A stretch of DNA of 61,674 bases, counting the filler, from Sphacelaria rigidula (taxonomy: Eukaryota), in NCBI GenBank assembly GCA_964200075.2. It is 11 parts of 11 records of this genome, joined end to end, with 100 filler letters (N's around TTAATTAATTAA, not from the genome) between each part and the next. Parts side by side here need not be neighbours in the genome. Positions count along the whole stretch, not along the records: positions 33,699 to 39,214 come from CAXNAA020026697.1; 10 more parts are not named here. One strand, 5' to 3'. The position numbers were made by a program, and so were the translations under genes. Of the stretch, positions 417-47,679 are shown piece after piece (the stretch's first letter is position 1; every line of letters begins with the position of its first letter). Below the pieces are notes generated by a model, which did not search any database, was not told the DNA's origin, and saw only the letters and a program-made list of their open reading frames with translations.

Positions 417-759
417 TTCTATGGCACGTGCGCGGTCTAAGATGTAGGCGATTTCACACTCAAGATTATTTCCACCACAAACGATTGATAGGTTTTAGTC
501 GCATCTGTCTTGTCGCATTCGGCGTCGGTAATTTAGATCATGGAAACGAGTTGTATTCCTACAGATGATGGACGGCTGCCTTGTTTTCTCACGTCGTTTC
601 TCGCCCACGAAGGCCACAAGTTATTCGAAGATGCATGTGGGCAGTGAGTGACAGCTTCGGACCAACCATAGCGGGATGTTATGCTCGAAAACTTGGGGTA
701 CTATGTCTTCGGCAGTTTCCAACTATGTTCGCTTGCATCAATAATCAATCCCCCGACAG

Positions 760-3700
760 GTAACCGAAAAGATCAAGACAATGGAAGAATGGTCACCGCT
801 GTTGAAGGACATACTTGACCGTGCCAAGGCCGGCCATCAATTCCACTTCTATCGCGCCCCTCCCGAGGCGGAGGAGGCAGCCATTATGGTTACTCCGACG
901 TCGGACGAAAAGGTCTCGCGGTGCAAGCGAGACCGACGCCCGCGCCGTCTGCTAAAAGCATTGGGATTGCAGGCGACTCCATCCTCCGCCGATTCCCCGG
1001 CTTCGAGCGCGACTATGACCCCGGGCACAACCCCCACCGCTACCCTGGCTCCACTTCGCAGTGCACCCCGCGGCCGCGGCGGCAACTCCTATGCCTCACC
1101 CGATCCTCCAGTCAACGCGAGCGGCCGCCCTGGGCGAGCGGCATCCGCACCCCCCGCGACCGACGCGGCCGCCTCCACCCCCGCAGCGCCGTACAGAAGA
1201 GGAAGCAGTGGCAGGGGCCGCGGCCGCCGAGGGAGAGACACCGGCCTCGGGAGCGGCAGCGGCAGAAGAGACGGCACGAGAGACAGCAACGGAAGATTCA
1301 GCGTAATCAAGTCGGCGGAGTCGTTCCCGTTGCCTTGTTCTCCGGACCCCGAAACTCCTGCGAGTATGCACAGCGTCTCCGTCCCTACCCCGGCTTCATT
1401 GGCGTTGCTGCCGCCGCCGCCGCCGCTGCCTCCGTTGACCACGGCGGCGGCCGAACGAGGAGGTAGGCGACGAAGCAGCCGATTTGTAGGTGGTGGTGAT
1501 GATGCGTCCACTTCCAGCGAGAGCGAGGCGACGACATATGAGACGAAAGAGGAGAAACAATCTGTTTTTGTGGCGGCAAAACAAGGAGAGGAGGGAGTTG
1601 CTGGGGATAGCGGGGCCCATGACCGCATCATGTCCTCCCCGGAAACGCCGGTTGTAAGGCTCGGGCGGGTGAGGGGCAGGACAAGGACGCGGGGCGGCCC
1701 TGCTGCAGCTTCTTCGGCGGAGGCGGGCGCGCACGCTGCGATGTCATCGTCTCGGGAAAGGGCGGACGTGAAGTTGGCAGATGTTGTTGCTTCTAGTAGT
1801 TGTTCTGTCGCTGCCGCTTCTGCAGGGTCGGTGAGAGCCAACATAAGAGATGTAGCCGAGGGCAGTGCGCCTACCTCTACCGCTAATGAGGCGGGGACCG
1901 ACAAGAAAGAAATTGCCGACTATGATGTGCCTAGCTTTGCCTTTGAGCAGGTGGGCACCGACACAAAAGATGTAGCCGAAGACGGGGCGCCTATCTCTGC
2001 CGTTACTCAAGCGGGCACCGACACAAAAGATGTAGCCCACGATGGCGCGCCTGGCTCTGTCGCCAAGCACGAGATGAAACCCGGCGAACGCCGCGGTCCA
2101 GGAAAACGGAAGGCTAGGCTGCTGGGTGACATTACCAGCTGGGGGAAACTGCCCTCGTCCCGCCCGCCGCCACGCAACCGTCGGCAGCTCCCTTCGCCGT
2201 CTGGGGGGTCGTCGGTGGCTGGTGATGATGGTGCCGCTGTTGCTGCTACTACCGTCTCCCTTGTAGCTGCCGCTGAATCCACCCGGGAATCCGCACTTTC
2301 TGCGTCGTCTTCATCGACCAGCACGGGAAAAGAAATGAAACCGGATGGTTGTGAAAGGGGATGCATCGGTACCGGCGTCGGCAGCGGCGGCGGCGGAGTC
2401 GGTGGCGACAGTGGCAACTCCAAAGATGAGGGTGTTGACGATGAACCTGATGGTCGGAAGGATAGAGCAGGGTCGGCAGCCGACAAGGGCATCAGCCAGG
2501 GTGTCAATGCTGATGAGAAGCACGGTGGACCGGAGGAGGGGGAGGGGTCGCCACCGCCGGGATTCGAGGGTGAGGAAACAAGAAGGGCGGAGGAGAACGC
2601 GCACCCAAAGGAGACGGAGCAGCCGGAAGTGGCTGGGGCAGAAGCGGATGGAGGTAGTGAGAACCGTGGTGCCAAAGACGGGGTGAGAGACGCGGGATCG
2701 GACGAGATGAAGGGTGACGAAGGTGGAGAACGAAGTTATGTGTCGTCCGTAGGCGATGGCACCGGCAAAGGTGATGAGGTAAGTAACACCGGCAACGTGT
2801 TCCCTGTTGGTGTAGGGGCTAGCAGCAGTGCGTCGGTGAAGGTAGGGGCGACCGTGAGTAGCACTCCGGAGGCGGGGGTAGGGCTGGATGTAACTGGGAA
2901 GGAGAAAGAGCAGAATGAGAATGGTGGGAGCGCGGTGGCGGAGAAAAAGGACCAACTAGAAGACATGGATATGTCGGAAGAGGAGGAAGAGGAGGAAGAG
3001 AAATCCGAGCATTTGAAGCAACACAAAGGAGCAGAAGGAGGCGGTGGCAATGATATCCAGGATACATCTAAGGCGAGTATGGTCCTTGACTCGGGCGCAA
3101 ATGACTACAAGGGGCGTTCGCGGGGCGCGGACGAGACTGACGACGGGAAGCGGCAGGCGGAGGGGCGGGAGGACCATGACGCGGCCACGGGATCCGGCGA
3201 AGGCGTGGTGAGGACGCATGCGGCACGGGTGGGGGCCGCGGGGAACGACAACGGTCATGGTGCCGGCGGTGCTAGTGATGGTGCTCAGCAGGCTGGAGAG
3301 ATGATGCACGGCCACGATGGCAATAATGGCGTCGGTGAAGGGAATAAAACGGAAAGTCTTTCAATGCTGTCACTTTCGGCGGGGCGAGACAGTTCGGAGA
3401 GCGAGGAAAAGCTAACTGCTGTTGTCAGCCGCAGGAGAGGTGAGGACAGCGGCAGCGGGGACGAAAACGATGCCAAGGAGAGCAGAGAGAATTCGTCTTC
3501 AGTGCGCCCGGTCGTCGCCCCTGTCGACTCCTCTTCCGCCGCTGTTGGCGCATCCTTGACCTCGACCGATCGAGTCACGGCAGCACCGCTTGGAGAGGCG
3601 GCCGATGGTGACTTTGCCGTATTAGACATGGAGCAGGCGAACAAGGAAGCCAAGGACGAGCGGTGGTCGGCTGCTTCTGCTGCTGCCGGCGCGGTAGAAG

Positions 3701-4529
3701 TGAAGGCGACGGAGGCGGCGGCGGGGATGGTGACGACCCAGGGGCGGACTGAAGAAACAAATCCAGTGGACACGGTATCGATGCTATCACCATCTGATGA
3801 CACGTCGTCTCTCCCCGCTTCTACAGCAGCGAGGGCTCAGGTCATCGATGATAACAGGGGTGGAGCCTCATCTGCCTTGGGAGCAGTAGTGCCTGGTGAG
3901 GGCAGCGCTATGGACACGGCAGCGATCGCCGACGACACCACTGCTCCCGCTGGTGCAGGAACCGTCGCGATCGCCACCACCGGAGAAACGGCAGGTGTTG
4001 CGACTGGAGACGAGACTCAATCATCGGCCCGACAACCCCCTGAAGCTGGAGCTGAAGCTAGCGTCGACACTTTATCGCCAACGGAAGCAACGACTGCGGT
4101 CGGCGAAAATGCTATCGTTGGCACTGCCGCCGCCGCTACTAGGGAGAAGACGGCGAGCGGGGTGGGGTTGCCCCATGGACGCGCACCCGCGGCAGCGGCG
4201 GCGATTGCAGCCACTGCGGGCGTCGCGAAATCTACCCCAAGCAGCAGTGCCAACCCGGAGGCTGTAATGGCGTGCAGAAAAAGCAGTCGCCGTAGAATAG
4301 CGTCCGATCGCGCCAAAGACGCCGAGGAAGACGAGCAGCGCAAGAGGAAGAGCAGTAGCCTGGGTGGCGGCGGTTGGGCTGTGGACGGCGGCGATGGCGG
4401 CGATGGTGCTGGTGGTTGGGGGGGCGGGGGGACAGGCGCGTCCGGCGTTCCGGCCGGCAGTGCGGTCCCGTTCCCGGCTCATGTGGACACGTCACTTCTT
4501 GCTAGACCTACCGACATGTACCTCTGCCG
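760..4529 (+). CDS. Very large internal exon, Ala/Gly/Ser/Glu-rich disordered protein of unknown function
   Basis: 1250-codon open frame; acceptor ccccgacAG at 758-759 is in frame with ORF 781; donor CG|GTGAGT at 4530. Confidence 0.85.
1847..2067 (+). repeat. 60-bp (20-aa) coding tandem repeat, about 3.5 copies (GTDTKDVAEDGAP...)
   Basis: ggcaccgacacaaaagatgtagcc-like unit recurs at an exact 60-bp period. Confidence 0.85.
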
Positions 4530-5090
4530 GTGAGTTCCGCTTTTTTTTACGTTTCATTGTTTTGTGCTAGCAGGAACGTAGTTGAATTATTCCCCTGGGC
4601 AGTATTGGTGCTCGTATGTTTTGATTTTGAAGCGTGTATCTGCTTGCAGGAAAATAAAGAGAAAGAGCAAATCGGGACGGTACTGATCTACGGTTCTACG
4701 GAAGTGCAGCGTTGCAAGTACCGTAGGGCCCGGTTATCATGAATAGCGTGTTGCCGAAGATTATGAACCTCAGGGTATTGAAGGATACCGCCACACAGGT
4801 ATCGATGATATTTCAAGGATTGCGGATGGCCGATCAAAAGACAAGAGCATCCACGCTTGGCTTGTAACGACCATTGCACAAGCCAGGTGGTGACCATATG
4901 TGTTCGTGATTATATATTTCAAGTATTGATATAGTGGAGTGTGGTACAGTAGCATGAATGAGGAGCTGACCCCCCCCCCCTCCTGTGCATAGAGGAAGGC
5001 GCGGGGTACAAGGCAGAAGTAGAGACACGATAAAAATAAGGGGAAAAGGAGCGCTCAGAAGTAGATGGATAAGATATGTATAATATTTTT

Positions 5091-19490: not shown

Positions 19491-21830
19491 GTTATCATTA
19501 TTATCATTATTATCATTATCACCATTATTAATATTATCGCGCATTAGCACGATCTCGCGAACCCGTGGTCACAGACGTAGGCTCGTCTTTCCAATATCGT
19601 CCCTGCTATTACTAATAATAAGACATTACCAAAACCTGAAAGTAATAAGAGAGACGCCACGAAAACATGTGAGAAATGGCTCCGCCGATTTCAAAAGGGG
19701 GGGGGAAATGAGACAAAAATCAACAACGTCATGTTTTCCGAAAAGAAAGAAGTACACCGAAAGAAAGGAAGAGCGAAAATAAAACAAGAGAAGACAAGAA
19801 AAGACAGGTTACACAAGGAGATTAGCATGCAAACCAAGTTCCGGTTCAACTAAAAAAAACAACCCCAGGCACTCTCATCGACGACTACCACAGCTGTTCA
19901 GAAACGTGCGGCAGATGTACCAGCGAGTGTTTTGCCCGATGGACCACAGCTTACGTTTCGGAGCTCCTCGACACTGGGGGAACTCTAGAGGCAGTACAGC
20001 AAAAAACTCCTAAGCTTGGCGTGCTTTTGTCCACGCGACCATGTACAAGTTAGGCCCCTCCTCTACAACTCGAGATCATTCGGACGCATATTGGGCAACC
20101 TGCGTCCACGATGTCGAGTTTATTCCAAAATATGAGCAGTGGTCCGTGGTGCAATGTTGTAGGCACCTTGCGGATCGGCCTGCCCTGGCCTTTCCTCCAA
20201 CCATCACTCCACGAATGACGATGTTGGGGAGGCAATCATCGTGCATATGCACAACGCGGCCGGCGTGTAGGAGGGTTCGTTTCATCACGTTGGCCTCGAT
20301 GCATTCGCAGCTAGTTCGTTCGAGGGCCTCGTGGTACGGCAGCATTTGGTAGTCAGGGTCTTGCGACTGAACGTATGCTTGCTGAGGCACCTCAGAAGAA
20401 ATCCTCGGTAAGCCTCCAATGACGCGCCGAAACTGTCTTGTGCGATCGTCCAGGTCGCGCAGACGTACACCATCACCTCGATCACTTCAGTCTTCAGAAG
20501 GCTGGCCTTGGTGGCCAGGGCGATGTACTGGTTGACGTAGATCGCTTTGCTATACTTGTGGAAGCACGCCCAGGCCTGGCCAATGCGGCTGTGGATCTCA
20601 GGGATGACATCACCGATGCTGCTGATTTTACCGCCAAGATAGAGGAAATATTCAACTTGCTTGTATCGTGGGCCAGCTGCCTCCACCTCGACCGTTTCCG
20701 CCTCCATGTTCGGGGAACACATGTGCATGGTGACAGTCTTGTTTTCCGCCACGACAAGGCCGGACGCCGCACAGACCTCGACGATTGCGATCATCGTCTT
20801 TGCCAGGCTTTCTCGAGACCGCGAGGCGATGCCAGCGTCGTCGGCGTGTAGCATGGTCCAGAGCACTTTCCTGAGTTCATTCCTGGTGTTCCTGCCCATT
20901 GCAGGGATTCGGATGAAATACTGAACCACCGCTTTATTGATCGAGAAGCGGTCGAACGATACCGTCATCAACACCGCGAAAAAGATGTTGAACAGGTCAG
21001 GGGAAAGTACACAACCTTGGCGGAGGCCCTGGTTGACGTTAAACATTCGGATGTTTCGCCGCTGTCCAGGCGTACGCATACCCGCATGCCGTCATGGAGT
21101 TGGCGGAGGATGAAAATTACCTTGGTGCGTATACCGTAGCGCGCTTAAAACGTTTCAGAGAAGAGAGCGGTCCACTGAGTCGTATGCGTTTTGGAGGTCG
21201 ATGAAGCACATGTACAGAGGAACATTCTTCTTTCGGGCCAGTTCTTCGAGTCCGCGTACAACGAACATCATGTCGACTGTGGAACGACCAGGTCGGAAAC
21301 CGCATTGCGATTCTGGGAGGATTCCATTCCACTCGCAAAATGCGCTGAGGCGAGTCGCAACTATCTTGAGCACCACCTTACCCGCGTGGGACCCGAGAGA
21401 AATATCGCGGTAGTTGCCGCATTCGTACGGGTCCTGCTTCTTGAAAAGCACCTTGATGATGGTGTATTTCCACTCTTGCGGTACAACTTTCTGACGCCAC
21501 ATGGTGAGTACAATGTCGTGGAGGCACGTCAGGATGGCAAAGTCTTCGGTGCAGCCAAGCTTCAACAGTTCGTCACAGATAGATGTTGTCCGTCTCAGCA
21601 GTCTTGCCGTTTGTCAGGTTGCCCACCGCTTACTTCACTTCTACCATCGAGGGCTCCGCCGCGAGCGGTGTGTGTTCCGGCAGCTGTTCAATGAGACCGA
21701 TGACCGAGTGACCAATTGTAGACGAGGTTGCATTCAGCACTGTCTCGAACCATTACTTCCATCGTTGCAGGATAGCTTGCTTGTCCCGCAACAGCTCGCC
21801 AGTCGCGCTCCTGACGTAGTTCGGGTCGTG
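19491..21830 (-). mobile_element. 5'-truncated, frameshifted RTE-clade LINE with reverse transcriptase, 3' UTR and (TAA/TGA)n tail
   Basis: RT motifs [69 protein letters not shown]. 3' end at 19550-19612 matches 50352-50444. 5' boundary approximate. Confidence 0.93.
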
Positions 21831-33698: not shown

Positions 33699-33934
33699 TA
33701 ACTTTTGTGTGCGTTTAAGAGACAACCAACTAGACTACTGCCCCGTCAGCGCTGACTGGTCAGTAGTCTAGGTGGTTGTCTCTTAAACCGTCACACCCCG
33801 CGGCTGGATCCCTAGGAAGTCAACTGATGTGCGACAGGCGACCAAATCAACCAATCGGTCGATTATCCATTAAATTACGCGTGTCCAGCAGACACGGATC
33901 TTGCCGACCACAGTTCGCTCGGGTACGGGGCGGG

Positions 33935-35070
33935 GGCGGGGGGTGGTGGTACTCATGATCATGCATGCTATGGTCATTAGACCATTGACCTCGCATCCCN
34001 NNNNNNNNNGAGTCGCATGAAGGGTGAGCTGCATCTTGCTAAGATTGTCCGGCCCGAAGCCTACTGATTATCTTGCATTTGCAGTTTCCTCTATTTGTGC
34101 CTACAGCTAAGGTTATTCTTATTTAAACTTAAGTAAAAGGGTTAGCTAAATCTAACGTATAACTAAATAAAATATTACTTAATTGCTTGTACATGTTCTA
34201 AGGATTTTTATGTAAAAGGTATAACATGATTCATTATCATTTTTGTTATATTCAAACAATAGTATTTACTTAGTGATAGTGATCTAGCTAAGTGTTTCCT
34301 CCTACTTAAATAAAGATAGAAATAACTTGTTTACCGTAGACACGGATAAAAGAAAAGGTATAAGTTGCAGTATGCTGCTTTCGGGTTTGTAGCCTAGGGA
34401 AGAAAAAATAGTTTTATCCCTAAAGAGGAACAACTGGGTTATTCTTATGTATTCATTTATTGTTTAGGGAAGAAAAGATTGGGCGTGCCATGTATCAGGT
34501 TATGTTTTTTTTCGCGTTTTCTTGTGTTTTTTCACGTTTTTCGCGTTTTTTACATTTTTCGCGTTAAGTTAGTATGTCCGGCGACGGATTTTCTTTGTCC
34601 CAGAAAAGTATAGTTTTTTTCATTATTTTTTTTTATTTCTTGGGTTCTTAAATTAATATTTGCGTTGAGTTGTTCTCCTATACTTTTTTCGTTTTCTTTG
34701 AGATCAGAAATAGTAATTCTATTTTGTTGCATAAAATTTTTCCAAGGCTCAGATTTACTTACCTTTTTAACAGCACTATAGTAAGCCGTTTTGAGGTAAT
34801 GTATGTCAATTATTCGGACATAAAACTCGTCGTGGACGGTGTACGTTGGTTTTTTTGTTTTTCGGAATTCACTTACTACATGATGTAATATTGTAGAATC
34901 CACGTGGTGTATAAAGTTGGGTAAAGTTGCTCTTATCGTTTTATTGATATTAGGAGCTGCGTCGAAACGTCTCGTGTCCCCAAGATTTTGAGGAAGTCTG
35001 GTATCGCCACTTCCAGAGACAGCCACGGCTTATACACTGCCTCATGGGTGTCTCACCATCCCGAGCGGGG
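33935..35070 (+). mobile_element. Family B copy interrupted by a ~0.9-kb foreign insert
   Basis: 33935-34096 and 34997-35070 align to consecutive parts of the uninterrupted copy at 46762-47058; a 10-N scaffold gap lies at 34000-34009. Confidence 0.85.
34550..34996 (-). pseudogene. C-terminal fragment of a T7/T3-phage-type single-subunit RNA polymerase within an AT-rich, probably organellar insert (about 34097-34996)
   Basis: NINKTIRATLPNFIHHVDSTILHHVVSEFRKTKKPTYTVHDEFYV matches the T7 RNAP PNFVHSQD...IHDSF motif C region, including the catalytic Asp; no intron; strongly AT-rich compared with host exons. Confidence 0.85.
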
Positions 35071-37159
35071 GGGAAGTGACGGGGTGCAATTGCGCTGCAC
35101 AACTCCAGAGTGCACATGAAAGGCCTGCATATCAATCATTGAGCTGAGAAGTCTGCTTGGACCACGCTTTCATTGAGAATTGTTTTTTCAAGAATTTATC
35201 TTGTCAGAGCACTTCGCTCCCACGGAGGACTTGTTGCCGCGGACGCTACGTCTGTACTCCAACTCCAGAGTCCAGGTTCGTAGCTGTAGTGTGAAGCACA
35301 CACAAATTGATAGACCTGGGAAGAGGGAGTCTCTCTCGTGTGGGACCTAGCACGCTGTTGGTCGTGGGGAATGATCCTCGGGGGAGGCGACCTGAAATCT
35401 TGGTCGTATATCTACGGTCGATTTTTCCGAACAAACAATAACCCTAGCCCTAACCCTAACCCCGACCCAAGGCGTACGAGACCTTCGGGCAAGGGGGGTG
35501 CACGGGTTCCCCTAGGCAAAGTGTGCGTTGCCAGACAATCGATGCCGAGCGCCGATGTCGACAAAATCAGGTTCTGGACGAACTGGGTCCACTGCTCACC
35601 TGCCCCAAACCATATTTTTTTTCAGAACTTTCTCGAATCTCGAATCAAGTATTATAGTTATTTTGTCAGATATACAGCCAAAGCTTTTACGTGCTTTTCA
35701 CCAAGTTTCACACACGGATTGCCGACAAACGTTCCATTTCGTTGACGAGCACGAAACGAAAGTAGATTTCACTCTGGCTACGATTTTCAGCCAAGTGATG
35801 GGAGTTTCATGGCCGCTCTGATGAACGTGCATTATTACTGACTGTGTAACATTGCAGTCGCCGAAAGATGCGTTGCAGAGCAGTACTGTTTACATCCAGT
35901 GAGTGAAGTCGAGTCCGCGTTACCGTACTACACTGTATCGCTGTGTTGGGTATATTATAGCACCTTCTACTCGTCTACCGCAAGAAGGATGGAATACGAT
36001 AGCACTCGATACTACCACTGCTGTGTCTGTGAATACGACAGACTTGCCCCAACGGCATACGTGCGCCACAAAATTAGGCACGCCCTGATTTTCATGTATC
36101 ACGTGGTATATACAGTACATTAGTAGTATAGTGCACACGCCCCGTCCCACGTGGAGGTTTATTGAGCGCGTGCGGAAGGGTGGGGTGCCTGCGGTCAGTA
36201 GTCGATTTTCAAGCGGAGATGATGCTCATTCCGATTCAACACACACAAAATACGGATTATACAAGTACGGGCATCCCGGGGTGGTCAAGGGGACTTTACG
36301 CCTCAGACCGCGAAGCAGTTGACTGGAATCCACGCATTATTTCAAAGACCGCTACTGCGGCGAAGATCGGCCTCTTCGGCCGAGCCAAGAGCCTAAATAA
36401 CAATACGATTAGAGTTTGACACGTTCTTGGACAAGAACGCTTGTCATGGAACAAAACACAAAATGCCATAGCCGAATGCAGACCGCCTGAGCTGCGAGCT
36501 CATGTAACGCCTGGGACTGGCGACTTTCAAAATACTTCATTGGAGGGAATCCAAGAGGAAAGTCGGGTACACATACGCTACGCATGCATCGGTATGTACC
36601 TGACGGATTTCTGCACTTTGACGCAACCCATGAATATGCGTTGCTTCCCCCCCTTTCGTGTTCGCGCAATGTTGGTTGAACGGGCTTTGAACGCGCGGTA
36701 GATGTCAGACCAGCCCCGTCACGAGTATCTACTCTTGGAAGAGAGGGGGGGTGAGAACGCGGGGCGACAATTCATACCGTATCTACAGCTGAAGCGCTGG
36801 GGTGGGCCTGCGCCGAAATTCACGGCGAAAACAAGCGGAAACAGGAACCTACGAAATAGAAGAGGGGGGGCGCGATCAAAGTTTTTGAATCAAGATTGCT
36901 CGAAAGTAGGCCTTGGGCAGGGAGCAATCCCTGAAACAATACTTGCGTTTTTTTCTCCCATGAACACATGACAGTCGATAGATCGGAGATACAGTACTAC
37001 TACTACTGTTGTCTGTACCATATTTCTGCTACGGCGCTACGGCTTTATACTTTATACACGCCGGGCAACGTTTAGCGAGTACATCAACGATTATGACATC
37101 ATGAGAGATATCCATCTCCGTTCTTTGCCCTCGAATCAAACACTGAACAAAACTCACAC

Positions 37160-37444: not shown

Positions 37445-37690
37445 TAGATAGCTATTGCTGGATCCTGAGTGAGTCAAAGTGCCGCTGTGCCTGGGTTCAA
37501 GGCCGCTGTGTTCTCCACGACACTACGCAGAGAAAAATGGGAACGAAGTCTCTCAGGTACCGATATGGATAATGGCCAAGTTGTAAGCTGCCCATGGAGG
37601 CGCCGCGTGCATTCCGAGGTTTGCAGTGCTACATTGATACCTCCCCACCTGTCACAGGTGAAGTATACCGCAAGTGTGAAGTAACTCAGC

Positions 37691-38599
37691 ATGACGGACA
37701 ATGGCGGCGTGGTATCAGCTGCCGACACCGCCGTGGTGGCTTTTCGAGAATTGGTGATCCTTGATGCTGCAGGTGGCCCCAACAGCAGACCGATGGTACA
37801 GGACTCGACACTGTGGACAACAGAGAGAATACGCCATGCAGCACACGGACGTCTCCACTTGCAAGCCTTGGAAGCTATACTCAGCCCGACCACCAGCTCG
37901 GCCGATATCATGGGCGCGGTGGCATACGGTGTTACCAGCCAGGGTCTAAGAGTCACGCAACGCGACGATTCCGGAAGAATAGTGGCCCAGCGCATCGAAG
38001 CTCCATATCTCGCTAGCTTTGCCACAGGGTCACGAGCCAGCCGGATACCCACAGTCGAGTGGCGCGTGGTAGTGGCCACGCTGGGCGTGTCAAGGGGACT
38101 AGCCCCATGGGGCGGCGTAGAGCGCGTTCTTTTGCTGGAATTCATGTCGGACCCTATTTCCACTGCAAAGCAAGATTTGGCCTCGAGAGGTGCCGCTGCG
38201 ATGCTGTCATTGTACGGCGCCGCCGCCGCGGCCGGTGTCGCGGTGGTCTCTTCATCGACGAGTAACAGTAGCTCCAGCAATGGTACCAGCAGCGGAATGA
38301 TGGGGGCAACGACGGCGACTAAGAGCACATCTGCTGTGGCTATTGCTCGTCAGAGGAGTAACCAGCGGGCGGAGGCACTTCTGGAAGGAGTGGCTGCCGA
38401 GCTTAACCGGCTGGGGTGCGGTGTGGTCACCGCTGCGGCGGCGGCCGACAGAGAAGAGAAGGGACTCAAGGAGGCGCATCGCGACGGTGAGAAAACATCG
38501 TCGGTGAAGCTGGTGCCATGGGGCGATGGCGAAGGGACCAAAGAGGGCACCGCGTCTAGCGCTTCTTCGGGTATCGCAGCTGGCGTGGAAAGGACTCAG
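37691..38599 (+). CDS. Probable first exon of an unknown protein (about 303 aa)
   Basis: 318-codon ORF with host-like composition, in-frame stop just upstream of the ATG, CAG|GTGTGG donor at 38600. Confidence 0.65.
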
Positions 38600-39214
38600 G
38601 TGTGGGCGGCTGGAGAGAGATGCACTGGCACCATCGTGGTGAGATAATGATCGCAATGTGCGACACTGGTGAACAAAAGATGACACGTCAAAGCAGTACC
38701 CTAATCGACAGCACAGGACTGGCTCCAGGATAATGGCACGTTTCTGTTTGTGCTTCCGTCTCCCCAAGCGGTGCAGTCAGTCTGTACTGTACACAAACAA
38801 CTAGGGTCATGTGATGAATGTGGTCGTATCGAAGCAATATTTGTATGGAAAGTCTCAATTCACGGAACTCCCGAAACAAGGCCCAGCAACCTTGCAGCCA
38901 CAATTGAACGTTCTGCTGCGAGCGTATTGAGCATGTAAGACGATAACCATCCAGCAGCGCTGATTGCGTACTGGCGTAAAACTGTACGAGCGTACCAGGG
39001 TTAGAAAAACTTCGCAGGCTTCGCGTGCGCTTGCGCAGGCGGGGACCGGAGGCGTCATGCAAGAAAAAAAGGATTTTCCTTTCAAAAAGACGCCTAGATT
39101 TTGTCAAAATGGGGCCATTTCGACGGTTTGAGCCTCGCGGAGGTACCGACCCCACCGTACACAAAAACGCACACCACCAGGCATCCGCCCGGTTGAACAG
39201 CACCAGGGGAATCA

Positions 39215-39314: not shown

Positions 39315-39379
39315 TCCAGAACAGAATAAAGGTTGGAGGAACGTATGGTTGTTGTGGGGTGGGTGGGGGGGGTGGGGGG

Positions 39380-39410
<31 letters not shown>

Positions 39411-42257
39411 GTGATGAAAACGGAACACGTGAATCCACCCTCCATGTTGCAGAACAGTGGTTCCAAGTGCTGCACGCTGGAGGAACATCGGATGATGTTC
39501 TTCGTCCCTAACCCTTCATAACTGCCCACCAAAAAACTTCGGTCCCCATCACACCGGACAGTCGATGTGACTCCGTATGCTTCGAAGCAAACCCTGACGC
39601 CGTTTCCGCGGTATCTCTCTTTTGTTTCCGACAGCTTACAGTATTACTGACGACACAAGGAATCGGCAGACCGTGAGTGTGTGTTTATTGTATACCTTGC
39701 GCGGCGATCCCGTAAGCACACTTCATTCGCCGCCCCAGCGACAATGACAAACACATGTCTGGGACATCTTTCCCACCGGCGGGCGATCTTAATTGTTGCA
39801 TGTATGCTTGCGGGAGAAGATATTCCCCACGCTACAAACCAAGTGGATGCGGCGCAATTACTACCTGCTCAATGTGGATATCACATGTGACCTGATGGGT
39901 TTTCACACCGCACCTCACATGTTGTAACACCCCTCATCGAGATGGAAATATCTCGACGCACACGGCAGCTATCGACACAAATCAAATAGTTCTGTATAGA
40001 TAACACGTGTACCTACCAGTCCTTCCCTTCTTGGCGGCCAACACTCTTGTCGTAAAATCAGAAGTTGGGGTGAAGTGAAGATCGTCTACTGCAGATATTG
40101 CACTATTTCGACACTCAACTGAAGTCTGCCAGGGCTTGAAGGATGAATAGTATCTAGAAGTACCTGCCTGTGGAGTTTCGGCCTCGTGACGTTCGTCGGT
40201 AGTGAGTAATCTTTTGTCGCGTGAAGGACGGCCATGTTGGAAAATGACTTTTTGGCTTTTACAAATAGTTACAACGTTTTCTAGGGGTATCCATCGCTGG
40301 TTTGTGAGCTGTACGGAGTGGAATCGAGCCAGACTGCAATAAGAAGATAGCTTCAGATATATACTACAGCTTTGTATCGCTTTGGTTGCGATAAAACCTT
40401 CTGCACACTCCTTAGACTCCGTTGCGTCTTCATTTTGGGGGTGGTGGTGGGAAACGTGACACTAATCCCCGGCGTAACACTGGACATGAAGAGCAACCCA
40501 TGACAATACTTCAGAACAGAAAAAAAGTTTGTGAGATGGTCATCAACACCCCGGGGTAGCAAACGCAGTGTGAGCGGTACCACCATTTTCCCGCAGGATT
40601 TCCGTCATCGAAAGATTTTAGCGCCATCAAAGGCTCTATTGTGTACGGTAGCCCCTGCAGCTTGGGAGAATATCACGGGGGTTATCGCGTTTTCGCCCCA
40701 GGGAGAGGGGTGTAACACACCGTAAATCATGCTGTAGTTCAACTACGTGAACGACAAGCGAGGCCGGCTACAACATCGTGTACACTGCCAACGGCTGCTT
40801 GCTGCGTGAGTATTGGTCGCTAAGTGAAGCAACTTAGATGTGATCGGTAAGCTTAACATTTCTGTGCTTCCGCTCGGCAGTGATGATTGACGACCGTGAG
40901 TCGGTTAGTGTTTTGCCACCACTACTGTTCCAGTTGTGCACGCTGGTGCCCTCTCTCTGCGCGATATGTGACCGAGCGTCCCAGTGCTTCCCCGTTGACA
41001 CAAATGCCAACGTCGACCTCTTGAAAGGTGCATCACCCCCACCACCGAAAGGGGTACCATCGAAAATATTATGTTCAACTGTTGTAATGCATAGGCCCTT
41101 GTGCACGTAGAGGATCTTTCTCTCTCGGGAAAATCGAGATCAAACATCTCACGAGGGGGGTGCTATACTCCGTCTTGTAAACTGTAATATGGAGACACTG
41201 GCGTTGCTGGACTCAAATCTCGACTGATGCATTGCTCACACATCCAGCGACCAAAGGCGGGAGAGGAACTGCTCAGAGGGGTGTTGTGGGGTCGTAAAGT
41301 GTTCCCTCTTCAATGCCTGAGCAAGACGGTAACGGCACCTTTGCCTTGTACCGTGTTGTATTGTTCTTGTTGTCTCTCACTCTGGCGTTGGATGGTGTAA
41401 TGTTGGCTTCAAGGAACGTCGAGTATAGCAGCCAATCGAGTCGAAAAATCTCAGGGTGCTACTTCGTGTGCGAGCACGGGCATTGGCCATGACAGGCAGA
41501 GATAAGTGATATCACAGATGCCAGTGATGGTGACCATTGTCCACAAGGTGGGTACATCGAACCTCCAACTAAGCCAGGATTTCGTCTTGCTCTAGTGACG
41601 GAAAGTTGTGGTGTTCCGATATAGTACTTCGAGTACGCTGCCTGTACTGGCAGCACAACTTCGGCTGAGATGTTTGTCATGAAGTGACCCGACGATGTAG
41701 GAGACGAATTCGCAAGTTGACGCTAAACGGTGGTACGGAACTACATGTATATCCGAGCAACCACTTGCTCAGTAGCGCGCATGTGTGATATTACAGCTGT
41801 ACAGCTTCAGTGTAGTTAGTAGCACGTGCGAACCTCGCAGTCGGTCAAATCGAGGGTTCACGTGGACTGGAATCTCGCCATGCACCCTTTTCATTGGTTT
41901 AGATGTGATGCTATCAGTTATCCAGAGGTCTGAAATTATTTTGCACCTCAGGCGCTAAGGCGGGTTCTTCCTGCAAGGGATTACGCCGTGTTTTCTTGAG
42001 ACCATAGGAAAAAAAACGGGAAAAGGAACAACCCCCGAAAGCAGCATGTTGATTAGTCGCCCCAACCATAGACCCGTCCGGTGATAAATCAGCACGCTCC
42101 TTTTGGGCGCTCGTTCCTTTCCCCACTTCCTCTTTTGCTCTCGAATAGACGCAGCCTTATCCCCTTTTGTTTTTAAACTCCCTCTTTAAAAGATGACTGC
42201 TGGTTGGTTGCTGCGATACCACCCTCCTCCCTCCAAAAGAACAAACGTGCAAAAGTG

Positions 42258-42690
42258 CACAGGCACCGTAGGTAAGGTACCATACCGACCGTACCCCCGG
42301 TATTTACCGGGGTATCCCATACCGTGGTATGCGTAGGTATCGTGGGTATGACTTTTCAAAATACCGGATTGGGCCGGTACGGTAGGTATTGAGATCTCGA
42401 AATACCCTACTATCGTAGGTATCGTGGATATGACTTTTCAAAATACCGGATTGGGCCGGTACGGTAGGTATTGAGATCTCGAAATACCCTGGTAGCGTAG
42501 GTAGCGTAGGTATGAGTTTTGAAAGTACCGGAGTTGGCAAATACGGTAGGTATTGAAATCTCGAAATACCGTGGTATCGTAGGTATTGTAGGTATGAGCT
42601 TCGAAAATACCGGATTGGGTCAGTATCGGTAGGGTATGAGATGTTCCAAATACCGGTACTGGATACCTGCCTTACCCTCTGTACCGAATT
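42258..42690. mobile_element. Family C TIR element with 82-bp internal tandem repeats
   Basis: Left TIR CACAGGCACCGTAGGTAAGGTA; units start at 42351, 42433, 42515 and 42597; degenerate right end tacctgccttacc. Confidence 0.85.
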
Positions 42691-42755
42691 CAAAACTGTC
42701 ATCTGGCAGTGCAAAGAGTTTCAGATCTGGGTGCAAGTTGGGCAGTAGAAGTTTT

Positions 42756-43121
42756 CACAGGCACCGTAGGTAAGGTACCGTACCGACCGTACCCCCGGTA
42801 TTTACCGGGGTATGCCATACCGTGGTATGCGTAGGTATCGTAGGGATGACTTTTCAAAATACCAGGTTGGGCCGGTACGGTAGGTATTGAAATCTCGAAA
42901 CACCGTGGTATCGTAGGTCTGAGTTTTGAGAATACCGGATTGGGCGTGTACGGTAGGTATTGAAATCTCGAAATACCCTGGTATCGTAGGTAGCGTAGGT
43001 ATGACATTTCAAAATACCGGGTTGGGCGGGTACGGCAGGTACTGAAATCTCGAAATACCGTGGTATCGTGGGTATCGTAGGTATGACATTTCAAAATACC
43101 GGATTGGACTTCCCGTGCCTG
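42756..43121. mobile_element. Second family C copy in the same orientation
   Basis: Same left TIR; units at 42849, 42922, 43004 and 43086; ends GTGCCTG (TIR remnant). Confidence 0.85.
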
Positions 43122-44929: not shown

Positions 44930-44995
44930 GTGGGGTTTTGCCTTGTTTGCCTTAGTGGTCGTGGCGTGGGTGTGGTTCGCGAGGCAGGTGGGGGG

Positions 44996-45031
<36 letters not shown>

Positions 45032-46761: not shown

Positions 46762-47058
46762 TGTGATCTTGCATGCCGTAGTTATGAGACCGTTAACCTC
46801 GCAACCCTACGAAACCGGGACGGAGCACGTTAGGTTGTCGCCGGACCAGGCTCGCAATTAATCGCGCGAAGCGCCGTGATGTGTTCGGCGAGTCGCAAAA
46901 AGGGTGAACTGCATCTTGCCAATATCGTTCGGCCCGAAGCGCACCGATTAACTTGCATTTGGGTCAACGCCTCCAATGAGTTTCCTTCATTTTCTGGTAC
47001 CGCCACTTCCAGAGACAGCCACGGGCTATTCTGCCTGACGGGGTTTTTCACCATCTGA
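46762..47058 (+). mobile_element. Family B copy (uninterrupted reference), intronic
   Basis: Aligns to 24450-24710 and to both halves of the split copy at 33935-35070. Confidence 0.85.
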
Positions 47059-47679
47059 ACATTACGCGGTACAATCATCCTCTTCGCGCGGAGTTACGGT
47101 TCTCCACCCTACACAGAATGATCTACTGTAACTCGATCACCATCATGGAAAGCGGGGAAGGAGGAAGGTATATAGCTTCGGGGGAACACAAAGGGGAACA
47201 CAAAGAGATGCCGACTCCTGCGGACACCTATAGAGTTGAAAATATGCTAGTGCAAAGCACAATGTGAAACACCAAGTAATCAGTTTGTTAGGCCCGCGAG
47301 CTGATCACTCGGGCGCGTTATACAGGAGCGGTACTAGACAATGTGCCATGGGTGATAAACGGCCTGGTGCCAACAACAGCCGGAAATCAAACACCGGGGG
47401 GGGGAGGGGGGGGGTTCCTTCAGGGGGGAGGGGGGTGGTGTGCAATTCTATCGTACCCACACTGCACACATGAACCACCCTACGCAAGCAACGAAGGACT
47501 ACGACAGATAGCCCACCACGAAAATGGAAAATAGTCCCATGACCCCCCCCCCGAAACACAATGATACACACTCAGCAGTCAGCATGTTGCAATACAGCAC
47601 ACGACCCAAGCGTTCATCACTCTTCCACCCATTTTTTACCCACCAACTACATTAGTGGGACATCCATGGGCACCATCAC

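What the first reader, a model, noticed from the sequence alone, without database searches (positions are those of the whole stretch)
34097..34996. T7-phage-type RNA polymerase fragment inserted into a nuclear repeat: likely fossil of a mitochondrial or plasmid rpo gene
Seen: a ~900-bp AT-rich, intronless block interrupts a family B repeat. The flanks (...ttgcatttgcagtttcctctattt | tctggtatcgccacttccagagacagccacgg...) are contiguous in the intact copy near 46950-47030, and there is no TSD. Its minus strand reads NKTIRATLPNFIHHVDSTILHHVV...TVHDEFYV, open to a stop at 34550. Established: this is the PNFxHxxD...HD motif C region of T7/T3-type RNA polymerases. The normal mitochondrial enzyme is nuclear-encoded, but AT-rich versions occur on linear mitochondrial plasmids and in the mtDNA of the brown alga Pylaiella littoralis. 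Inference: this is recent break-repair capture from an organellar genome, or from an undescribed plasmid- or virus-like replicon of this alga. The unbroken frame suggests the donor is recent or still present.
Basis: partly seen in the sequence, partly recalled or inferred. Interest (0 to 1): 0.8.

Follow-up and report, generated by a model that had tools for sequence, protein, structure and literature searches.

The report
Mitochondrial-type RNA polymerase fossil in nucleus
A 900-base AT-rich piece carrying the tail end of a brown-alga mitochondrial-type RNA polymerase gene was pasted into a nuclear repeat and is now decaying there: an ordinary kind of organelle-to-nucleus DNA fossil, of some use as a record of a patchily distributed mitochondrial element.

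Summary
Bases 34097-34996 are a 900-bp block of 32% G+C (window 51%). It splits one copy of a very abundant dispersed repeat exactly where the copy at 46880-47030 is continuous, with no target-site duplication. Its minus strand encodes the last ~145 residues of a phage-type RNA polymerase (Pfam RNA_pol, E 1.6e-7). The best relative is the Pylaiella littoralis mitochondrial enzyme (50% identity, E 5.5e-27). In a tree the fragment sits in a supported clade (95/90) holding all named brown-algal mitochondrial copies.

The insert is real nuclear DNA. Contigs of three public runs from two studies carry it with flank sequence, at depths like the neighbouring unique DNA, and no further copy at least 90% alike was laid.

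It is not "unbroken", and no donor was seen. In the window the family's usual C-terminus (...PDILT, stop) lies in another frame, behind a 9-T run. A variant in an independent run has one base fewer and reads straight through. That variant differs by 17 substitutions (mostly amino-acid changing where coding) and a 79-bp deletion.

So this is a shared, neutrally decaying fossil. Whether the donor was the mitochondrial genome or a plasmid-like element is undecided. Modest interest.

The parts
34097..34996 (-). The insert: 900 bp, 32% G+C. It holds the 3' end of a mitochondrial-type rpo gene plus about 470 bp of downstream DNA.
   Evidence: composition. (flanks adjacent in the intact repeat copy). 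(a 972-bp contig of X1 and an 883-bp contig of X4 carry it with flank sequence).
34628..34996 (-). RNA polymerase remnant in frame 0 (LPQNLGDTRRFDAAPNINKTIRATLPNFIHHVDS...TVHDEFYV...RTQEIKK). It corresponds to about residues 680-800 of the 824-aa Pylaiella enzyme.
   Evidence: Pfam RNA_pol E 1.6e-7. phmmer E 5.5e-27 to P0002. tblastn homology reaches the insert edge at 34996. Columns invariant across 14 sequences, T64 H66 D67 F69 D75, are kept.
34626..34634 (-). Run of 9 T (A on the coding strand), the place of the frameshift. The X4 variant has T>A at 34626 and one base fewer at 34627.
   Evidence: tables 3 and 4.
34564..34625 (-). The original last codons, now out of frame in the window (...KKTILFWDKENPSPDILT), and the original stop TAA at 34564-34566.
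   Evidence: frame one base on. 24 of 54 relatives end in I-L-x. The X4 variant reads into this frame.
34550..34552 (-). The stop codon that ends the shifted frame in the window allele (...VAGHTNLTRKM, stop).
34503..34565 (.). Tandem 9/18-20-nt repeats (TTTTTCACGTTTTTCGCG, about 3 copies) starting at the original stop codon.
34097..34345 (.). Imperfect foldback at the far end of the insert (arms about 34112-34190 and 34250-34326). Nature unknown.
   Evidence: RNA fold of 34097-34565 has z -5.1, with 0 of 100 shuffles as stable. As DNA, 34097-34350 has z -2.5. The longest arm pair is 29 nt at 72% complementarity.
34129..34219 (.). 12-nt direct repeats (TTAAGTAAAAGG at 34129, TTATGTAAAAGG at 34208) that bound the 79 bp (34133-34211) missing in the X4 variant.
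   Evidence: family D11; table 8 record 17.
34010..34096 (+). Left half of the interrupted repeat copy. It lacks 16 bp relative to the intact copy, 15 bp before the junction.
   Evidence: Summed word depth in the millions in the first bins, so the family is very abundant.
34997..35060 (+). Right half of the interrupted repeat copy.
   Evidence: 83% identical to the intact copy.
46880..47060 (+). Uninterrupted copy of the same repeat. It serves as the 'empty site' comparison.
34000..34009 (.). 10-N assembly gap, in register with about 85 bp of the repeat.

Best explanation
A double-strand break inside one copy of an abundant nuclear repeat was repaired by end joining. The repair captured a 900-bp piece of DNA that had leaked from the mitochondrial compartment. 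The piece holds the last ~145 codons of a brown-alga-type, T7-like single-subunit RNA polymerase gene (rpo) and about 470 bp of non-coding DNA behind it.

The piece cannot make an enzyme, because it lacks everything before the motif C region. It has since drifted as a nuclear pseudogene. One lineage (the window) gained a base in a 9-T run and lost the frame of the last 20 or so codons. Another lineage (run X4) lost 79 bp between two 12-nt direct repeats.

Shown: the insertion, its family and clade, its presence in two studies, its unconstrained divergence, and the lack of a near-identical extra copy in three runs. Inferred: end joining as the mechanism, the mitochondrial compartment as the source, and the direction of each mutation.

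Not resolved: whether the donor molecule was the mitochondrial chromosome with a resident rpo (pseudo)gene, as in Pylaiella, Desmarestia and Hedophyllum, or a separate plasmid-like element.
For: Family and clade:
- Pfam RNA_pol hit above the cut-off.
- 54 relatives at E<=1e-3 among 1.84 billion representatives, with the best being the Pylaiella littoralis mitochondrial RNA polymerase at 50% identity.
- 6 of 30 clusters looked up carry a name, and all 6 are brown algae: Pylaiella, Hedophyllum, Desmarestia, Ectocarpus fasciculatus twice, Ectocarpus sp. 4.
- In a tree of the window plus 35 of the 54 hits, the window lies in an 11-row clade (bootstrap 95 / SH-aLRT 90) that holds all four named rows included.
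- All 54 hits are rich in F, Y, M, I, N, K (0.28-0.54) and poor in G, A, R, P (0.07-0.19). This is as expected for AT-rich organelle or plasmid genes.

Insertion:
- The junction is clean, with adjacent flanks and no duplication.

Public runs:
- Contigs carrying the insert with flank sequence: X1, 972 bp, 34054-35025, 0 differences. X3, 34281-34731 and 34702-35025, 0 differences. X4, from another study, 883 bp.
- Contig depths are like the neighbouring unique contigs: 59 against 67, 8-11 against 15, and 48 against 28.

Decay:
- Frameshift in the window allele.
- 7 coding differences between the two variants, of which 6 change the amino acid when taken singly.
- Similar divergence in the coding part (9 substitutions in about 430 bp) and the non-coding part (8 in about 354 bp).

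Host and literature:
- A neighbouring gene's only named relative is from Laminaria digitata, so the host is a brown alga or a relative.
Against: - The donor was not found. No genome or mitogenome of this organism is held, so identity to its own mitochondrial DNA is untested.
- The nearest relative is only 50% identical, so the source lineage is not any sequenced one.
- The 470 bp behind the gene match nothing: no tRNA, no Rfam family at E<1, and no Pfam family above its cut-off in 7 short frames. Nothing there ties the piece to a mitochondrial chromosome.
- On the right junction the public contigs reach only 29 bases into the flank, below the 31 that the tool asks for bridging.
- X1-X3 may be the very samples the window was assembled from, which leaves one independent study.
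- Contig depth is a rough figure and some records are filtered out.
- The X4 insert contig is 1.7 times deeper than its flank contig.
Confidence: 0.82

Rival explanations
1. The donor is an autonomous plasmid-like replicon of the mitochondria (linear with terminal repeats, or circular) that is still present in this alga. The insertion would then be a recent capture from it.
For: - Phage-type RNA polymerases of this AT-rich kind are typical of mitochondrial plasmids (passages of PMC11528492 / bioRxiv 10.1101/2022.04.05.487141).
- Many unnamed relatives sit on contigs of 5-7 kb. The P0022 cluster, for example, has 7 members whose longest contigs are 3.8-6.4 kb, five of them 6.37-6.44 kb.
- An earlier, unchecked note of this scan (e1-2939078) describes a 5.7-kb plasmid-like element with its own RNA polymerase in another brown alga's mitochondrial DNA, closing as a circle in another data set.
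- The frame is open for 148 codons, which limits neutral divergence to under about 15% (P(open) 0.04 at 15%).
- The insert ends in an imperfect foldback.
Against: - In X1, X3 and X4 no contig at least 90% alike covers the insert besides the contigs that carry it with flank sequence and short low-depth pieces in X1.
- The insertion is shared by a variant 2% diverged, so it is not very recent.
- There is no DNA polymerase or other recognisable gene in the 470 bp behind the gene.
- Scans of JGI metagenome contigs and IMG/VR found no relative. The one hit, L001, is a 21-residue K/N-rich match that I take for chance.
- No free mitochondrial plasmid of a brown alga turned up in the literature searches. 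A 2024 paper calls its circular plasmid the first from any stramenopile.
Confidence: 0.1
2. An ordinary, strict NUMT: the piece comes from this species' own present-day mitochondrial genome, which carries an rpo gene or pseudogene.
For: - Several brown-algal mitogenomes carry such genes or pseudogenes (PMC8290108).
- The G+C of 32% and the blunt, duplication-free junction fit a NUMT.
Against: - No second copy at least 90% alike was laid in three runs.
- The distribution of rpo among brown-algal mitogenomes is patchy, so presence in this species cannot be assumed.
- Its mitogenome could not be examined.
Confidence: 0.4
3. An assembly or gap-filling artefact that joined organellar or contaminant sequence into a nuclear scaffold.
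For: - The only true gap of the window lies 87 bp from the insert.
- The flanks are a very abundant repeat in which assemblers break.
Against: - Both junctions fall on adjacent bases of the repeat, which a chimera would not do twice.
- Independent contigs from a second study carry the left junction, with 43 bases on the flank side and 36 on the insert side. They carry the right junction with 29 flank bases, and with their own sequence differences.
Confidence: 0.02
4. Direct horizontal transfer into the nucleus from another organism, such as an epiphytic brown alga, or through a virus, rather than from the host's own mitochondria.
For: - The distribution of these elements among brown algae is read as horizontal in PMC8290108 (abstract and section 8 passages).
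- The nearest relative is only 50% identical.
Against: Nothing points to it specifically. There is no viral or foreign gene next to the insert, and the flanks are the host's own repeat. Organelle-to-nucleus leakage is the commoner route, by established knowledge.
Confidence: 0.05

Closest known systems
T7-like RNA polymerase gene of the Pylaiella littoralis mitochondrial genome (UniRef O78798, NP_150421.1; 824 aa)
   Same: - It is the best hit of 1.84 billion representatives: E 5.5e-27, 50% identity over query residues 19-123 against 691-800.
- Both share the RATLPNFIHH...TVHD.FYVR block and belong to the same supported clade.
- Both have an AT-rich coding style.
   Different: - Here only the last ~145 codons are present.
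- The fragment sits in nuclear DNA inside a repeat.
- It is frameshifted before the C-terminus, and the sequence is only half identical.
[quoted passage not shown] 2021, PMC8290108)
   Same: - They are truncated 'RNA polymerase' reading frames of 145 and 310 aa at 45% identity (P0003, P0004), in the same clade.
- Their distribution is patchy, which suggests mobility.
   Different: Those lie in mitochondrial genomes, reported mostly inside introns of the LSU rRNA and cox1 genes. This one lies in nuclear DNA, and Rfam found no group II intron signal beside it.
NUMTs (nuclear copies of mitochondrial DNA captured at double-strand breaks)
   Same: Both are organelle-like AT-rich DNA in a nuclear context, with a blunt junction, no target duplication, and neutral decay.
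   Different: Identity to the species' own mitogenome, which defines a NUMT, could not be tested. No near-identical second copy was laid.
Mitochondrial linear-plasmid sequences found in nuclear genomes of plants and fungi (PMC10583447)
   Same: The idea is the same: plasmid genes of the mitochondrial compartment end up in nuclear DNA (passages read).
   Different: That survey reports them in land plants and fungi. In the passages I read, no such finding is stated for its 295 SAR species. No protein-primed DNA polymerase or terminal inverted repeat is seen here.
Nuclear-encoded mitochondrial RNA polymerase (RPOT / POLRMT)
   Same: It belongs to the same Pfam family, PF00940.
   Different: None of the 54 best hits has the composition of a GC-rich nuclear gene. 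The fragment is 32% G+C in a 51% G+C genome. A labelled brown-algal RPOT could not be put in the tree.

Membership tests
Single-subunit phage-type RNA polymerase (Pfam PF00940 RNA_pol) | Profile match above the curated cut-off | tested here: met
   31 bits against a cut-off of 22, E 1.6e-7, profile positions 290-403 of 448.
Single-subunit phage-type RNA polymerase (Pfam PF00940 RNA_pol) | Motif C His-Asp of the active site | tested here: met
   TVHDEFY is present. H66 and D67 are invariant in 14 aligned sequences. Equating them with T7 residues is recalled, not tested.
Single-subunit phage-type RNA polymerase (Pfam PF00940 RNA_pol) | Complete catalytic body (motifs A and B, N-terminal domain) | tested here: not met
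   Only the last quarter of the profile is present. tblastn with five longer relatives (310-845 aa, two of them full length) finds no other piece in the window.
Single-subunit phage-type RNA polymerase (Pfam PF00940 RNA_pol) | Family-type C-terminus (...I-L-x, then stop) | tested here: not met
   The window frame ends ...NLTRKM. ...PDILT followed by a stop lies one base out of frame. 24 of 54 relatives end in I-L-x. The X4 variant meets the feature.
Brown-algal mitochondrial T7-like rpo clade | Groups with the Pylaiella, Hedophyllum and Desmarestia copies | tested here: met
   An 11-row clade with support 95/90, on 138 columns.
Brown-algal mitochondrial T7-like rpo clade | Located in mitochondrial DNA | tested here: not met
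   The fragment is flanked on both sides by a nuclear repeat, and its contig depth is like the unique neighbours.
NUMT | Embedded in nuclear DNA without a target-site duplication | tested here: met
NUMT | Matches the species' own mitochondrial genome | tested here: inconclusive
   No genome is held. No extra copy at least 90% alike was laid in three runs, but a more diverged mitochondrial copy would be missed.
Linear mitochondrial plasmid (terminal inverted repeats, protein-primed DNA polymerase B, phage-type RNA polymerase) | Protein-primed DNA polymerase gene beside the RNA polymerase | tested here: inconclusive
   No Pfam family above its cut-off in 7 frames of 34097-34613. However, only about 470 bp beyond the gene were captured.
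Linear mitochondrial plasmid (terminal inverted repeats, protein-primed DNA polymerase B, phage-type RNA polymerase) | Terminal inverted repeats | not testable with these tools
   A 900-bp fragment holds at most one end. Only an imperfect internal foldback is seen.
Nuclear RPOT / POLRMT gene | Nuclear composition and full-length gene | tested here: not met
   32% G+C against 51%. The piece is a fragment only. All 54 relatives are of the AT-rich type.

The most novel reading that the evidence does not exclude
The fragment does not come from the mitochondrial chromosome. It comes from a free, rpo-bearing plasmid-like replicon of brown-algal mitochondria, a kind of element not yet described in print for brown algae (searches). 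Fossils like this one, and the short rpo-bearing contigs in Ectocarpus assemblies (P0011-P0013), would then be a nuclear record of repeated plasmid invasions. That would explain the patchy distribution of rpo in brown-algal mitogenomes.
Probability: 0.25. Interest if true: 0.55.

Novelty: new member of a known kind. Interest (0 to 1): 0.3.

Why it matters
On its own the insert is a dead fragment. Its value is as a marker.

It shows that this lineage, or its ancestors, harboured a T7-like rpo element of the kind seen patchily in brown-algal mitochondria, and thought to spread horizontally (PMC8290108). It also gives a datable nuclear copy, shared by at least two diverged lineages, against which the arrival and loss of such elements could be timed.

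If the donor proves to be a free plasmid, it would be a first for brown algae. In the literature library I searched I found no paper on nuclear copies of these genes in brown algae.

Tried and rejected
- Whole-genome search of the window's own assembly: no genome is held.
- Word-indexed protein searches with the fragment, longer and near lengths: no hit. The full HMMER search found the relatives, so these blanks reflect the index.
- phmmer of the fragment against PDB sequences: only chance matches, E 0.18 or worse. A profile of alignment A2 reached only the two chains of PDB entry 6dt7, labelled RNAP1 and RNAP2, through parts outside the fragment.
- JGI metagenome contigs, two scans, and IMG/VR, one scan: no relative. 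The one locus, L001, is a 21-residue match to the K/N-rich tail, which I take for chance.
- tRNA, Rfam and Pfam searches of the 470 bp behind the gene: nothing. One search failed on my frame error and was redone.
- A group II intron context, as reported for some kelp copies: no Rfam signal.
- RNA evidence: no RNA holder is listed. The run guessed to be RNA (X6) gave no cover on the insert. This says nothing on expression.
- An empty allele at this very locus: the joints come from other copies of the repeat, so insertion polymorphism could not be judged.
- Higher divergence of the insert than of the flank between the two variants: 17 of 814 against 4 of 443, which is not significant (Fisher p 0.17).
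- Notes of this scan on this genome or on like sequence: none.

Full report
**What is there**

The window is 51% G+C. Bases 34097-34996 are 32% G+C, and no other real AT-rich block exists in the window. The other low bins coincide with pairs of 44 N that recur about every 5616 bases and look like masks.

The block splits one copy of a dispersed repeat:
- The right-flank 32-mer occurs again at 46993 with one mismatch.
- In the alignment the left flank (...GTTTCCTCTATTT) ends on the column before the right flank (TCTGGTATCGCC...) begins, along the uninterrupted copy 46880-47030.
- No bases are duplicated or shared at the junctions.
- The interrupted copy also lacks 16 bp of the repeat, 15 bp before the junction.
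- The repeat family is extremely abundant. The summed word depth on the flanks is in the millions, against about 60 for unique DNA in run X1. Hundreds of contigs from other copies join the two flanks directly (tables 5 and 7).

**What the insert encodes**

The minus-strand frame 34550-35029 (159 codons) matches Pfam RNA_pol PF00940. The match is E 1.6e-7, 31 bits against a cut-off of 22, over profile positions 290-403 of 448.

An exhaustive HMMER search of 1.84 billion representatives gave 54 proteins at E<=1e-3, 8 of them at E<=1e-10:
- The best is the 824-aa RNA polymerase encoded in the Pylaiella littoralis mitochondrial genome: E 5.5e-27, 50% identity, query 19-123 on residues 691-800.
- Next come the 'RNA polymerase' frames of the Hedophyllum nigripes and Desmarestia aculeata mitogenomes (45% each).
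- Of the 30 clusters I looked up, 6 carry a name, and all 6 are brown algae. Three of them are short products from Ectocarpus fasciculatus and Ectocarpus sp. 4 assemblies, on contigs of 507-1620 bp.

Further points on the fragment:
- Homology starts at the very edge of the insert (tblastn to 34996). The first 11 codons of the frame are repeat sequence.
- No other piece of such a gene is in the window.
- The fragment keeps the columns that are invariant in 14 aligned sequences (T64, H66, D67, F69, D75).
- A maximum-likelihood tree used the window plus 35 of the 54 hits. I left out 19 short or poorly covering hits. On 138 columns, the window falls in an 11-row clade with support 95/90 that contains all four named brown-algal rows. 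The position inside that clade is weak (88/54).
- All 54 hits have the amino-acid make-up of AT-rich genomes. Nothing resembling a GC-rich nuclear RPOT is among them, though I had no labelled RPOT to put in the tree.

**The frame is not intact**

Relatives end in a conserved C-terminus...I-L-x followed by the stop. This holds for 24 of the 54 hits, including 7 of the 10 other rows of the brown-algal clade.

The window's frame instead ends ...VAGHTNLTRKM. One base out of frame it reads ...KKTILFWDKENPSPDILT followed by TAA at 34564-34566. The switch lies at a run of nine T, 34626-34634.

**Public reads**

Four runs held half or more of the sampled words of 34010-35600. Three are of 'organism A' from one study, and one is an 'algae metagenome' from another study. 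All runs are kept as contigs. I laid X1, X3, X4 and X6:
- X1 has a 972-bp contig, 34054-35025, with no difference.
- X3 has two contigs, 34281-34731 and 34702-35025, with no difference.
- X4 has an 883-bp contig covering 34054-34132 and 34212-35025, with 17 substitutions and 10 gap letters (three small indels).
- These contigs bridge the left junction with 43 bases on the flank side and at least 36 inside the insert.
- Their depths are 59, 8-11 and 48. The next unique contigs have 67, 15 and 28.
- Apart from short pieces of depth about 11-14 in X1, nothing else at least 90% alike was laid on the insert.
- I take this to mean a single nuclear copy with no near-identical high-copy (organellar) twin. 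The caveats are that contig depth is coarse, that some records are filtered, and that X1-X3 may be the source of the assembly. That leaves one independent study.

**The two variants**

The X4 variant has T>A at 34626 and one base fewer at 34627.
- Applying the listed differences in a script shows that it reads straight through to ...ILFWDKENPSPDILT and the stop. The captured piece therefore had the normal gene end, and the window lineage later shifted it.
- Conversely, X4 lacks 34133-34211. That stretch lies between 12-nt direct repeats 79 bp apart (family D11), a typical slippage deletion.
- Upstream of the shift, the variants differ at 7 coding bases. Six change the amino acid when taken singly.
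- Coding and non-coding parts differ about equally: 9 substitutions in about 430 bp and 8 in about 354 bp.
- All of this is what an unconstrained pseudogene shows.
- The insertion therefore predates the split of the two lineages.
- Since 4.7% of point changes in the frame would create a stop, its openness argues for less than about 15% neutral change since capture (P 0.04 at 15%).

**The rest of the insert**

Behind the original stop come three copies of a 9/18-20-nt repeat, 34503-34565. The far end, 34097-34345, can form an imperfect foldback:
- As RNA, 34097-34565 has z -5.1.
- As DNA, 34097-34350 has z -2.5.
- The best arm pair is 29 nt at 72% complementarity.

No tRNA, Rfam family or Pfam family was found there. 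This part does not tell whether the donor was a mitochondrial chromosome or a plasmid.

**Host**

A neighbouring reading frame (37685-38647) has 20 relatives. The only named one is from Laminaria digitata, at 51% identity. With the 'algae metagenome' label of X4, this fits a brown alga or a close relative. I did not go further.

**Mechanism and comparison**

The blunt, duplication-free junction inside a repeat is the usual signature of organelle DNA captured by end joining at a chromosome break (established knowledge on NUMTs; inference here).

What the papers say:
- T7-like RNA polymerase genes and pseudogenes are in print for the mitogenomes of Pylaiella, Desmarestia aculeata, Hedophyllum nigripes and H. 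subsessile, Pleurophycus gardneri and Pseudochorda nagaii. Their distribution is read as horizontal spread (PMC8290108; abstract and passages of sections 5 and 8 read).
- The original Pylaiella papers (Oudot-Le Secq 2001, seen only in that reference list; Rousvoal 1998, recalled) were not read.
- Plasmid genes of mitochondria are known to reach nuclear genomes in plants and fungi (PMC10583447, passages).
- A 2024 paper calls its circular plasmid the first mitochondrial plasmid from any stramenopile (bioRxiv 10.1101/2022.04.05.487141 = PMC11528492, passages).
- An earlier, unchecked note of this scan (e1-2939078) describes a 5.7-kb plasmid-like element with its own RNA polymerase in another brown alga's mitochondrial DNA. 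I could not test it here. It keeps the plasmid reading alive.

**Verdict**

The core of the interpretation, a fossil of a mitochondrial or plasmid rpo gene in a nuclear repeat, is supported. The claims of an unbroken frame, of recency and of a surviving donor are not.

This is a new member of a known kind, organelle-derived nuclear DNA. It has modest interest as a datable trace of a mobile mitochondrial element.

Noticed in passing
window 5518-56159: Twenty runs of exactly 44 N, in pairs 12 bases apart, recur about every 5616 bases. This looks like masking laid over the sequence, not assembly gaps. They depress G+C in several bins of the composition profile.
   Followed up: partly
window 33706-33795: A 45+45-nt palindrome with no spacer, 87% complementary. 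It has a weak Rfam match to the MIR9471 precursor, 33.8 bits against a gathering score of 150. It is probably a small foldback (MITE-like) element beside the repeat.
   Followed up: no
window 35439-35468: A short interstitial telomere-like array, (TAACCC)4, 440 bp right of the insert. It lies in a stretch that is itself highly repeated in the public runs (bins 35414-35600).
   Followed up: no
window 39343-39410 and 44979-45030: Long G runs of tens of bases, flanked by G-rich degenerate repeats (family D2).
   Followed up: no
window 20285-21091 (-): A reverse-transcriptase fragment (Pfam RVT_1, E 1.1e-9), probably a decayed non-LTR retrotransposon.
   Followed up: no
window 42254-43107: A tandem array with an 82-bp period, in two blocks (family D1).
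   Followed up: no
window 745-4533 (+): A 1262-codon open frame of low-complexity, Ala/Ser/Gly/Glu-rich sequence in a 59-69% G+C stretch, with no Pfam family.
   Followed up: no
proteins P0008, P0014-P0022 (one search hits): Many unnamed full-length relatives (663-960 aa) sit on contigs of 5-10 kb. In one cluster (P0022) the longest contigs of the 7 members measure 3.8-6.4 kb, five of them 6.37-6.44 kb. The sizes would suit complete small plasmid-like replicons. Their DNA could not be fetched.
   Followed up: no
window 34172-34279 and 34604-34657, run X1: Extra short contigs of depth about 11-14 lie on parts of the insert in X1. One carries 34621 C>T, the base seen in the X4 variant (tables 2 and 3). 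This may be a second haplotype or strain in that sample.
   Followed up: no
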